IMG/VR virus record: IMGVR_UViG_2728369607_000007
Span: 1 to 50,260 of that record
DNA: 50,260 nucleotides
From: a virus
Lineage: Duplodnaviria > Heunggongvirae > Uroviricota > Caudoviricetes
Direction: 5' to 3' (one strand)
Position 1 is the first letter of the stretch. Each line of letters starts with the position of its first letter. A program made the translations under genes and the position numbers. A model generated the notes under the pieces. The model was not told the origin of the DNA. It saw nothing but the letters and a program-made list of their open reading frames with translations, and ran no database searches. Positions 33,930 to 34,118 of this stretch are shown here, one piece after another.

Positions 33930-34118
33930 TTTTTTTCGTGTTTTTTCAGTATGCGCATACTGGATAAGTGCACAGATACAACGTGAAACAATGTGCAACA
34001 ACGTGACACAATCACGAACAAGAGGCCAAAAAGAATACAGATTTGTAAGTTACTGATTTTTAATGCTCAGCTGGTTTTTTATACATTAGTGAATTACGCG
34101 TTAAAGCGTGCGAAAAAA

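What the first reader, a model, noticed from the sequence alone, without database searches (positions are those of the whole stretch)
33983..34007. Exactly phased GTGNA repeats at both ends of the island
Downstream of int there are three GTG(A/C)A motifs at exactly 10-bp spacing (33983, 33993, 34003). Near the right end there are four GTGAC motifs, again at exactly 10-bp spacing (48248, 48258, 48268, 48278). One helical turn of phasing on both arms strongly suggests cooperative binding of a single protein, such as integrase arm-type sites or AlpA/excisionase sites controlling excision.
Basis: seen in the sequence. Interest (0 to 1): 0.5.

Follow-up and report, generated by a model that had tools for sequence, protein, structure and literature searches.

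The report
Phased operator repeats in phage satellite
The two repeat arrays are real but are two different things inside a capsid-forming phage satellite: the first belongs to a conserved set of helically phased sites that probably bind the satellite's master regulator AlpA, and the second is a separate, dispensable array that is neither an integrase nor an AlpA site.

Summary
The window holds a 16.3-kb capsid-forming PICI (EcCIEDL933-like phage satellite) inserted between roxA and phoQ of E. coli.

**Array A (33978-34025)** is real and conserved. Its conserved core is ACAA(Y), five copies at exactly 10 bp, not GTG. The same unit, TTGTTYCACG on the other strand, also forms phased arrays at four other places:
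- both att arms, each beside a doubled 12-bp motif that co-varies with the integrase arm-binding domain (the true arm-type sites);
- over the predicted alpA promoter;
- in front of the capsid operon.

The most likely reading is operator arrays for AlpA, acting as a dual excision and transcription factor like phage 186 Apl or P2 Cox. No binding was tested.

**Array B (48248-48282)**, GTGAC x4, is statistically unique in the window but unrelated to Array A.
- It lies 0.5 kb from attR.
- It travels with a 93-aa ORF in PICIs that carry other Int and AlpA types.
- It is absent from an EcCIEDL933-type island.
- Its binder is unknown. It resembles repeats inside an O-like replication gene of lambdoid prophages.

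"One protein, integrase arm sites at both ends" does not.

The parts
33978..34025 (-). Array A. Five 10-bp units, ACAACGTGAA ACAATGTGCA ACAACGTGAC ACAATCACGA ACAAGAGG. Read on the minus strand these are TTGT-family units. It lies 49 bp after the int stop and 279 bp before the alpA start.
48248..48282 (+). Array B. GTGAC x4 at exactly 10 bp: GTGACGGAGA GTGACAACCA GTGACACACC GTGAC. It lies 298 bp after the 93-aa ORF and 510 bp before the attR core.
32611..32650 (+). P' arm array. TTGT x4 at 10 bp: TTGTTCCAGC TTGTTTCACG TTGTAGCCCT TTGTGCAACG. It abuts the doubled arm motif.
32548..32577 (+). Weak TTGT-family phased triplet in the P' arm, nearer the attL core.
32654..32681 (+). Doubled 12-bp motif GGTGTAGTTAAT x2. 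Candidate Int arm-type sites of the P' arm, about +144 bp from the attL core and 20 bp before the int ATG.
48652..48681 (+). P arm array. TTGT x3 at 10 bp: TTGTGTCTAT TTGTTCCACG TTGTTTCATA.
48695..48718 (+). Doubled 12-bp motif GGTGTAGTTAAT GGTGTAGTCAAT. Candidate Int arm-type sites of the P arm, about -90 bp from the attR core.
41074..41103 (+). TTGT x3 array, TTGTTCGTGG TTGTTCCACG TTGTTCACTG. It lies just after a terminator (41033-41050) and 210 bp before the capsid gene.
34222..34275 (-). Array C. Weaker phased array: RACNC x5 on the plus strand, TTGTGTC units on the minus strand. It overlaps the predicted alpA promoter, TTGCCA-17-CACAAT at 34214-34242.
32519..32528 (.). attL identity block GGACATATTT.
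   Evidence: K-12 empty site
48792..48801 (.). attR identity block GGACATATTT. It overlaps the phoQ stop codon.
32700..33929 (+). int, a tyrosine recombinase with an Arm-DNA-bind_3 domain.
34304..34492 (+). alpA, 62 aa, Pfam PF05930 (Phage_AlpA).
47669..47950 (+). 93-aa ORF (phrog_1561, no Pfam). It is the last gene of the island's rightward gene set. Array B directly follows its stop codon in other PICIs.

Best explanation
The island at 32519-48801 is a capsid-forming PICI.

**Array A.** It is one of five or six arrays of a 10-bp unit, TTGTTYCACG (ACAA(Y) core on the other strand), repeated at one helical turn. I infer that these arrays are operators for the island's 62-aa winged-helix protein AlpA. 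AlpA would bind head-to-tail on phased direct repeats, as excisionase-type proteins do, and would serve two roles:
- Recombination directionality, at the arrays in both att arms. These abut the doubled GGTGTAGTTAAT motif, which I assign to the Int arm-binding domain.
- Transcription control, at Array A in the int-alpA spacer, at the weaker array over the alpA promoter, and at the array at the head of the capsid and packaging operon.

**Array B.** It is a different element. It is a GTGAC array that is inherited with the 93-aa terminal ORF of many PICIs, independently of Int, AlpA, replicase and packaging type. It is dispensable for the satellite life cycle, and an unidentified protein binds it.

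**Shown:** positions, phasing, significance, conservation patterns and distribution.
**Inferred:** the identity of the binders and the regulatory outcome.
For: 1. The island is a cf-PICI with the same gene order as an O157 island that matches EcCIEDL933 in site, order and size.

2. TTGT/ACAA x3 at 10 bp gives 7 overlapping hits in 4 loci, all at functional landmarks of the island, against 0.002 expected. Weight-matrix phased triplets give 9 hits in the island, 0 in the 32.4 kb outside it, and about 0.15 per 50 kb in shuffles.

3. The array persists across 22 sequence variants. Spacers drift and units are gained whole, for example an exact 10-bp duplication in L053.

4. The doubled motif tracks the Int arm domain: VRHSTSGLL with GTAGT(T/C)AAT, VKYLTSGKL with GTAGTCAC/TT, and the HE-PICI Int with GTGTATTGCA. 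The TTGT arrays stay constant while AlpA is constant.

5. L096 has a different Int and arms without TTGT arrays, yet keeps TTGT x3 before its capsid gene. It encodes an AlpA-like protein with a similar helix, TGLSRSRRW against TGLSRSCRY. The capsid-operon array is therefore not tied to the Int type.

6. L012, which has a different AlpA type, has no TTGT arrays anywhere.

7. L142, whose AlpA is 64% identical, keeps the capsid-upstream TTGT array. Other cf-PICI lineages have TTACCC x3 at the same spot.

8. Published biology fits. [quoted passage not shown] The canonical alpA is needed for excision (PMC11773190). A strain that overexpresses alpA is used to drive EcCIEDL933 reproduction.

9. Positive control. 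The same blind 4-mer scan found TTTGCCA x4 next to int/att and TTGGCAA x4 (extending to 6-7 by eye) between the CI gene and an unannotated ORF at the Apl/Cox position in a 186-like prophage. This is the Apl architecture (PMC7498355).

10. Array B:
- It is present unchanged in islands at yifB, tRNA-Pro/yejO and clpS, including one with a different Int and a different AlpA.
- It is absent from L001, L004, L005 and L096.
- No ORF of the window's island co-varies with its presence.
Against: - No binding data exist, and I found no published AlpA site in the papers searched.
- AlpA is 92-98% identical in all E. coli islands of this Int family. The co-variation test for AlpA therefore rests on a few distant cases.
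- In the group with 77-78% Int identity, the P' arm (readable in L088 and L089) still has TTGT units in phase, though only L088 passes the weight-matrix threshold. In that group the post-int array is AATATC x3 instead of ACAA. Array A is therefore not universal and need not share a binder with the arm arrays.
- Array A is separated from alpA by a terminator-like hairpin at about 34116-34150.
- The TTGT N6 TTGT layout also resembles the sites of phage CII-type activators (own knowledge), so a helper-phage factor is not excluded.
Confidence: 0.5

Rival explanations
1. One reading: both arrays are integrase arm-type sites, or sites for one common protein, that flank the island and control excision.
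For: - Int has an arm-binding domain.
- Both arrays are phased at 10 bp.
- Array A and the arm arrays share the TTGT unit.
Against: - Array A is 1.45 kb from the attL core, and Array B is 0.5 kb from the attR core here and roughly 0.5-0.75 kb in other islands.
- The doubled 12-bp motif at +144/-90 is what co-varies with the Int arm domain. It matches the -81/+132 architecture described for HE-PICIs.
- Array B is identical in an island with another Int family and other arm motifs.
- Array B is absent from an EcCIEDL933-type island.
- The TTGT array persists before the capsid gene in an island with a different Int.
Confidence: 0.06
2. The TTGT/ACAA arrays, including Array A, are bound by a factor other than AlpA. 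Candidates are a helper-phage protein such as the unknown inducer of alpA or a CII-type activator (which recognises tetranucleotide direct repeats 10 bp apart), a host nucleoid protein, or another island protein.
For: - The helper-phage inducer of alpA is unidentified.
- Array A and Array C lie in the alpA control region.
- The post-int array changes to AATATC in a group whose arm arrays stay TTGT.
Against: - The arrays are absent from an island with another AlpA type.
- They are retained wherever an AlpA with a similar recognition helix is encoded.
- Placement at both att arms and at promoters matches the dual RDF/regulator pattern re-found in the 186-like control.
Confidence: 0.22
3. Array B mimics the origin iterons of a helper prophage. 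It would bind the O-like (DnaT-domain) replication initiator of lambdoid or Rac-like phages, as a decoy or for hijacking.
For: - A GTGAC x6 array at 10-11 bp spacing lies inside the O-like gene, next to replication protein P, in prophages of 2186 of 5426 E. coli genomes.
- The units share (C/A)GTGACA.
- One PICI variant (L008) shares a 17-nt identity, AGTGACACGCCGTGACA, with it.
- Array B sits in the accessory right-end region and is dispensable.
- It is not the island's own origin. The iterons next to the island's replicase gene are AAAAGTGAG.
Against: - It is not shown that the phage array is an origin or that the initiator binds it.
- Apart from the L008 variant, the similarity is essentially the pentamer plus one flanking base on each side.
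- 10-bp arrays of an arbitrary 5-mer are also common in viral contigs: the control GACTG x4 gave 64 loci, against at least 120 for GTGAC, where the scan stopped at its limit.
- No AT-rich unwinding region lies beside Array B.
- Co-occurrence with such prophages was not tested.
Confidence: 0.17
4. Array B is the operator or target of the adjacent 93-aa protein (phrog_1561). One possible role is a roadblock or regulatory site at the end of the island's operon.
For: - In L006 and L007 the array begins within 10 bp of the ORF's stop codon.
- Every island with Array B has the ORF.
Against: - Islands with an identical ORF lack the array (L005).
- The AF2 model is three helices at pLDDT 70 with no significant fold match.
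- There is no Pfam or PDB hit.
Confidence: 0.12
5. The arrays are non-functional tandem repeats produced by replication slippage.
For: Copy number varies by whole units.
Against: - The core is conserved while spacers diverge, across about 70-100% identical relatives.
- The same unit recurs at five landmark positions and in both orientations.
- Array B is kept at 92-100% identity across different integration sites.
Confidence: 0.03

Closest known systems
Phage 186 Apl and P2 Cox: dual-function excisionase and transcription regulators (PMC7498355; P2 Cox from own knowledge)
   Same: A small DNA-binding protein has sites that are direct repeats one helical turn apart, present both at the attachment site and at promoters. 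I re-found this layout with the same scan in a 186-like prophage (L141). AlpA is likewise reported to be both required for excision and a transcription activator.
   Different: AlpA belongs to Pfam PF05930, not the Apl/Cox family. Here the arrays lie on both att arms, and a further array heads a capsid operon. AlpA activates rather than switches between lysis and lysogeny. Binding has not been demonstrated.
Lambda Xis sites X1-X1.5-X2 (own knowledge)
   Same: A winged-helix excisionase forms a head-to-tail filament on phased direct repeats next to Int arm-type sites.
   Different: Lambda has one array, in the P arm only, between P2 and the core. Array A and Array B are outside the att arms altogether.
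Doubled attP motif of helper-embedded PICIs, tgTGTATTGCa x2 at -81 and +132 (Tommasini, Mageeney & Williams 2023, PMC10111431)
   Same: This island has a doubled 12-bp motif, GGTGTAGTTAAT x2, co-oriented at about -90 and +144 from the core. L096 carries the published motif itself.
   Different: The sequence differs. That paper states its motif was not found outside HE-PICIs. Here I add co-variation with Int arm-domain residues, and an adjoining TTGT array that the paper does not describe.
Lambda cosB R sites and the PICI cos-Rpp system (PMC6739421, PMC9026076)
   Same: A repeated element near the packaging genes, which I considered for Array B.
   Different: In Rpp-type PICIs, cos lies directly upstream of rpp. 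Array B occurs in islands with three different packaging modules and is absent from an EcCIEDL933-type island.
Origin iterons inside a lambdoid replication initiator gene (lambda ori within gene O, own knowledge)
   Same: GTGAC x6 at 10-11 bp spacing lies inside an O-like gene of common E. coli prophages and resembles Array B's (C/A)GTGACA units.
   Different: Array B is not inside a replication gene and has no adjacent AT-rich region. The island's own iterons are AAAAGTGAG. The phage array's function is itself inferred.

Membership tests
Integrase arm-type sites (heterobivalent tyrosine recombinase attP arms) | They lie within the attP arms, about 50-200 bp from the crossover core. | tested here: not met
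   Array A is 1450 bp from the attL core, beyond int. Array B is 510 bp from the attR core here and roughly 0.5-0.75 kb in other islands.
Integrase arm-type sites (heterobivalent tyrosine recombinase attP arms) | The sequence co-varies with the Int arm-binding domain. | tested here: not met
   Array B is the same with a different Int family. A TTGT array persists with a different Int in L096. The doubled GGTGTAGTTAAT motif does co-vary with the Int arm domain.
Integrase arm-type sites (heterobivalent tyrosine recombinase attP arms) | They are bound by the Int N-terminal domain. | not testable with these tools
   This needs EMSA or footprinting.
RDF/excisionase operator arrays (Xis, Cox, Apl type) | Three or more direct repeats spaced one helical turn apart. 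| tested here: met
   Array A has 5 units and Array B has 4, both at exactly 10 bp. The arm arrays have 3-4 units.
RDF/excisionase operator arrays (Xis, Cox, Apl type) | An array of the same motif lies in an att arm next to the Int arm-type sites. | tested here: met
   The TTGT family (the motif of Array A) abuts the doubled motif in both arms. No GTGAC array is found in either arm, so this is not met for Array B.
RDF/excisionase operator arrays (Xis, Cox, Apl type) | The motif tracks the cognate RDF (AlpA) type across elements. | tested here: inconclusive
   TTGT arrays are absent with a different AlpA type (L012) and present with similar-helix AlpA-like proteins (L096, L142). However, AlpA is nearly invariant in most islands, and the post-int array differs in the group with 77-78% Int identity. 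Array B does not track the AlpA type.
RDF/excisionase operator arrays (Xis, Cox, Apl type) | Direct binding by the RDF. | not testable with these tools
   This needs purified AlpA.
cosB / small-terminase recognition repeats | They lie adjacent to cosN and are linked to one packaging type. | tested here: not met
   Array B occurs with HK97-type, capsid/decoration-type and ClpP-capsid-fusion modules. It is absent from an EcCIEDL933-type island.
Replication-origin iterons of the island | They lie next to the island's replicase gene and flank an AT-rich region. | tested here: not met
   The iterons next to the RepA helicase gene are AAAAGTGAG x5, at 39212-39401. Arrays A and B lie elsewhere. Array B occurs with different replicase types.
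Capsid-forming PICI (context of the finding) | int-alpA-rep plus capsid, protease, portal, connectors, HNH, TerS and TerL; no tail or lysis genes; 10-16 kb. | tested here: met
   Annotation of the 99% identical island, and Pfam results. The size is 16.3 kb.

The most novel reading that the evidence does not exclude
Array B is a satellite-borne mimic of the origin iterons of lambdoid or Rac-like helper prophages, whose O-like DnaT-domain initiator gene carries GTGAC x6. Once the satellite amplifies, the array would titrate or recruit the helper's replication initiator. That would be a DNA-decoy form of phage interference or hijacking, carried in the satellite's accessory region.
Probability: 0.17. 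Interest if true: 0.7.

Novelty: new member of a known kind. Interest (0 to 1): 0.45.

Why it matters
AlpA is described as the master regulator of Gram-negative PICIs, yet none of the papers I could search defines its DNA targets. How one small protein triggers excision, replication and, in capsid-forming PICIs, capsid production therefore remains unexplained there.

The TTGT/ACAA arrays give a concrete, testable regulon of five or six sites in this island: both att arms, the alpA control region and the head of the capsid operon. They also separate these sites cleanly from the integrase's own arm sites.

That would place PICI AlpA with the Apl/Cox class of dual excision and transcription factors. 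It would also explain how a satellite couples leaving the chromosome to building capsids.

Array B flags a separate mobile cis-element of unknown function in the accessory end of many PICIs. It may be aimed at the helper phage.

Tried and rejected
1. **cosB or terminase site for Array B.** Rejected on distribution across packaging types and absence from an EcCIEDL933-type island.

2. **The island's own origin.** Rejected, because its iterons are AAAAGTGAG next to the replicase gene.

3. **P. aeruginosa AlpA antiterminator as a model.** That protein is a Q-like protein of more than 140 aa whose HTH lies at residues of about 128-142, and it binds GGGACG. It is not comparable with the 62-aa PICI AlpA.

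4. **The 93-aa ORF as an obvious DNA binder.** No Pfam or PDB sequence hit. The AF2 model has pLDDT 70 and no significant Foldseek match.

5. **Gene presence/absence screen for a partner of Array B.** No ORF of the window's island separates islands with the array from those without it.

6. **Rfam.** Nothing at either array. There is only a sub-threshold hit at 34080-34161.

7. **BLAST of Array B against phage genomes.** No match.

8. **Genome-contig scan with Int.** It returned only one locus, so cross-species co-variation had to come from IMG/VR contigs.

9. **Coding explanation.** Mechanical ORFs overlap both arrays. A 10-bp period and whole-unit indels are incompatible with a reading frame, and the annotated near-identical island has no gene there.

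10. **RNA-level motif.** Unlikely, because the same unit occurs in both orientations with strict helical phasing.

11. **GTGAC arrays as one special family in viral contigs.** The control 5-mer GACTG x4 gave 64 loci, so such arrays are generically common.

Full report
**Context**

The window is E. coli chromosome. Positions 32000-36000 and 47600-50260 match many E. coli genomes at 99-100%. Comparison with the empty roxA-phoQ junction of K-12 places the insertion between identity blocks GGACATATTT at 32519-32528 and 48792-48801. The second block overlaps the phoQ stop codon. The island is therefore 16.3 kb.

The annotation of a 99% identical island and Pfam results give this gene order:
- int (32700-33929, with an Arm-DNA-bind_3 domain);
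- alpA (34304-34492, PF05930);
- a RepA-type helicase;
- SSB and PerC;
- an HK97-type capsid, protease, portal, head closure protein, head-tail connector, HNH, P27-family TerS and TerL;
- a 93-aa ORF (47669-47950).

This is a capsid-forming PICI. An O157 island (L004) matches the published prototype EcCIEDL933 in site, gene order and size: 15.46 kb here against the published 15.4 kb. I treat L004 as EcCIEDL933-type on that basis.

**Checking the observation**

The coordinates are right.

Array B, GTGAC x4 at exactly 10 bp, is the only 4-copy chain of any 5-mer in the window. It never arose in 300 Markov simulations.

The stated motif GTG[AC]A therefore fails on the third, and a GTG-based chain is not significant. 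The region is still a true 10-bp tandem array. Its invariant part is ACAA, five copies from 33978 to 34018. ACAA/TTGT x3 at 10 bp occurs 7 times (overlapping) in 4 loci against 0.002 expected, and at no other spacing between 7 and 14 bp.

**What Array A belongs to**

The same unit on the other strand (consensus TTGTTYCACG) forms these arrays:
- x4 at 32611-32650;
- x3 at 48652-48681;
- x3 at 41074-41103.

A weight matrix built from these units also picks up a weak triplet at 32548 and a weak array at 34222 on the minus strand. It finds nothing in the 32.4 kb outside the island, and about 0.15 hits per 50 kb in shuffles.

The first two arrays each abut a doubled 12-bp motif, GGTGTAGTTAAT x2, at 32654-32681 and 48695-48718. 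These lie about +144 and -90 bp from the att cores. This reproduces the architecture that Tommasini et al. described for helper-embedded PICIs, tgTGTATTGCa x2 at -81 and +132.

The 41074 array lies directly after an intrinsic terminator and 210 bp before the capsid gene.

The 34222 array overlaps the best promoter candidate for alpA, TTGCCA-17-CACAAT. The TTGCCA element recurs in the related islands I read.

**Conservation**

The int-alpA spacer is found in 878 of 5,426 E. coli genomes at 70-100% identity. In 22 distinct array variants from E. coli and IMG/VR contigs:
- ACAA is kept in 115 of 119 units. The phase was chosen by ACAA count, so this figure is somewhat inflated.
- GTG occupies unit positions 6-8 in only 31 units.
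- Arrays have 5 or 6 units, and one variant has an exact 10-bp duplication.

This is the signature of a helically phased protein-binding array. It rules out coding and simple slippage as explanations.

**Who binds**

The doubled motif co-varies with residues of the Int arm-binding domain:

| Int arm-domain residues | Doubled motif |
|---|---|
| VRHSTSGLL | GTAGT(T/C)AAT |
| VKYLTSGKL | GTAGTCAC/TT |
| HE-PICI Int (VRVSKYGCV) | GTGTATTGCA |

AlpA and the TTGT arrays stay unchanged across the first two classes. I therefore assign the doubled motif to Int.

Three observations then point away from Int and towards an AlpA-type protein for the TTGT arrays:
- L096 is a cf-PICI embedded in a prophage terL gene. 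It has a different Int, the published HE-PICI arm motif, and no TTGT arrays in its arms. It still carries TTGT x3 before its capsid gene. It encodes a second AlpA-like protein whose helix (TGLSRSRRW) resembles that of the window's AlpA (TGLSRSCRY).
- L012 has a different AlpA type and a different Int, and has no TTGT arrays at all.
- L142, with AlpA 64% identical, keeps the capsid-upstream TTGT array. Other cf-PICI lineages have TTACCC x3 at the same position. This suggests a lineage-specific regulator site.

Published work fits this reading. [quoted passage not shown] A strain that overexpresses alpA is used to drive EcCIEDL933 reproduction.

A positive control came unplanned. The same blind 4-mer scan found TTTGCCA x4 beside int/att in a 186-like prophage. 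It also found TTGGCAA x4, extending to 6-7 copies by eye, between the CI gene and an unannotated ORF at the Apl/Cox position. [quoted passage not shown]

**Caveats**

- No binding was measured.
- AlpA is almost invariant within the E. coli islands.
- In the group with 77-78% Int identity, the array after int is AATATC x3. The P' arm, readable in L088 and L089, still has TTGT units in phase, although only L088 passes the weight-matrix threshold.
- AlpA was reported not to control int in EcCICFT073.
- A terminator-like hairpin lies between Array A and alpA.
- A helper-phage activator remains a live rival.

I put the AlpA assignment at about 0.5. That Array A is a functional member of the TTGT family I hold at well above 0.8.

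**Array B**

The weight matrix does not detect Array B. Its invariant part, GTGAC, is the half of the unit that varies in the TTGT family.

Its distribution sets it apart from Int and AlpA:
- The array occurs in 256 E. coli genomes. In a subset of hits only the array itself matches.
- In PICIs at yifB, tRNA-Pro/yejO and clpS it follows the 93-94-aa ORF. It starts within 10 bp of the stop codon in L006 and L007, where it has five copies.
- In the window, about 300 bp of repeated GGCG(C)GGTAACT modules have been inserted between the ORF and the array.
- It is unchanged in L012, which has another Int family, other arm motifs and another AlpA type.
- It is absent from L001, L004 (EcCIEDL933-type), L005 and L096, although L005 encodes an identical 93-aa protein.
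- The published EcCIEDL933 is induced, packaged and transferred. Taking L004 to represent it, Array B is dispensable for the life cycle.
- No ORF of the window's island separates islands that have Array B from those that lack it.

The 93-aa protein gave no clue:
- it has no Pfam or PDB sequence hit;
- its model is three helices at moderate confidence;
- that model has no significant fold match.

The island's own origin iterons are AAAAGTGAG.

**A lead for Array B**

A scan of IMG/VR for GTGAC x4 at 10 bp returned at least 120 loci. Thirty-one of them carry one recurrent array, CGTGACATCAA TGTGACCACGT AGTGACACGCC CGTGACATGTC CGTGACATTTC CGTGACGCGCT.

In E. coli this array lies inside an O-like, DnaT-domain replication gene, upstream of replication protein P. 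It is found in prophages of 2186 of 5426 genomes. By analogy with lambda, where the origin lies within gene O (own knowledge), these are probably origin iterons.

Array B shares the (C/A)GTGACA unit. The L008 variant shares a 17-nt identity with the phage array. Array B could therefore be a decoy or a recruitment site for a helper phage's replication initiator.

The evidence is thin. A control 5-mer gave 64 loci. The phage array's function is itself inferred. Co-occurrence was not tested. I give this reading about 0.17.

**Verdict**

- The arrays are real, phased, conserved cis-elements.
- They are two different elements, and neither is an integrase arm site.
- The true arm sites are the doubled 12-bp motif.
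- Array A is best read as one operator of a multi-site AlpA regulon that links excision, alpA autoregulation and capsid-operon expression. That makes it a new member of the Apl/Cox/Xis kind of system.
- Array B is an accessory element whose binder is unknown.

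Noticed in passing
window 32654-32681 and 48695-48718: Doubled 12-bp motif GGTGTAGTTAAT x2, co-oriented at about +144 and -90 bp from the att cores. Its 3' half co-varies with residues of the Int arm-binding domain in three classes. This extends the HE-PICI 'doubled motif' architecture of Tommasini et al. 2023 to other PICI integrases.
   Followed up: yes
window 36183-36368: Rfam hits above the gathering score: isrK Hfq-binding RNA (36183-36259, 66 bits) and C4 antisense RNA (36281-36368, 77.6 bits). They lie next to genes annotated as ash-family and Icd-like in near-identical islands. Together this looks like a P1/P7-type c4-icd immunity module inside the satellite.
   Followed up: no
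window 47940-48220: Three copies of a GGCG(C)GGTAACT..TTGAT module. The latter two are about 45 bp long (47984-48030 and 48176-48220). The first overlaps the 3' end of the 93-aa ORF, and each of the latter two is preceded by a short hairpin. The O157 island L004 has four to five copies. These may be recombination scars or cassette boundaries in the variable right end. I considered and did not establish that they are cosN-like.
   Followed up: partly
window 48361-48495, minus strand: Unannotated 45-aa hydrophobic ORF, MMIQMCTFSTNGGKAPTVTMIAMVASMVCVVIMTIQPVTLIRIFR. It has a promoter-like site (48518-48491) and a minus-strand terminator (48301-48289) that runs into Array B. The DNA is partly conserved in L004. 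It is possibly a small membrane or toxin-like peptide.
   Followed up: no
window 33948-33963 and 34116-34150: A perfect 16-bp palindrome, CAGTATGCGCATACTG, lies just after int. A conserved terminator-like hairpin, GGCATAAAA..TTTTATGCC, has A and T runs on both sides and lies between Array A and alpA. A possible short leader or small RNA with a second hairpin shows compensatory changes between islands (ACGC/GCGT against CTCT/AGAG).
   Followed up: partly
L071-L094 (IMG/VR; Int 77-78% identical), about 80-110 bp after the int stop: In this more distant group, a different phased array, AATATC x3 at 10 bp, follows a terminator hairpin after int. The P' arm still has the TTGT array and the doubled motif where it can be read (L088, L089).
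   Followed up: partly
L136, L138 and L143, about 210-240 bp upstream of the capsid gene: Other cf-PICI-like elements share the leader TTTGTAAAT(T) with this island. After it they carry (T)TACCC x3 at 10 bp where this island has TTGTTC x3. No AlpA or Int homologue was found in the retrieved flanks.
   Followed up: partly
L273 3501-3585 (E. coli RM10466 prophage) and 31 IMG/VR loci: GTGAC x6 at 10-11 bp spacing lies inside the 5' part of an O-like, DnaT-domain replication gene, next to replication protein P. It is present in prophages of 2186 of 5426 E. coli genomes. It is probably the origin of this lambdoid or Rac-like replication module.
   Followed up: partly
window 39212-39401: Five copies of AAAAGTGAG, in two clusters immediately after the RepA-type helicase gene. 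These are the island's probable replication-origin iterons, placed as described for Gram-negative PICIs.
   Followed up: partly
window 16603-25859: This stretch is 98% identical to a segment annotated as lambdoid prophage tail genes (tape measure, minor tail proteins, gpJ) plus a Hok/Gef gene. A prophage therefore lies only a few kb from the satellite, on the potB side.
   Followed up: no
window 40288-40656: A PerC-family regulator gene lies just upstream of the capsid operon. A PICI PerC homologue was recently reported to silence LEE1 expression in Citrobacter rodentium (PMC11773190).
   Followed up: no
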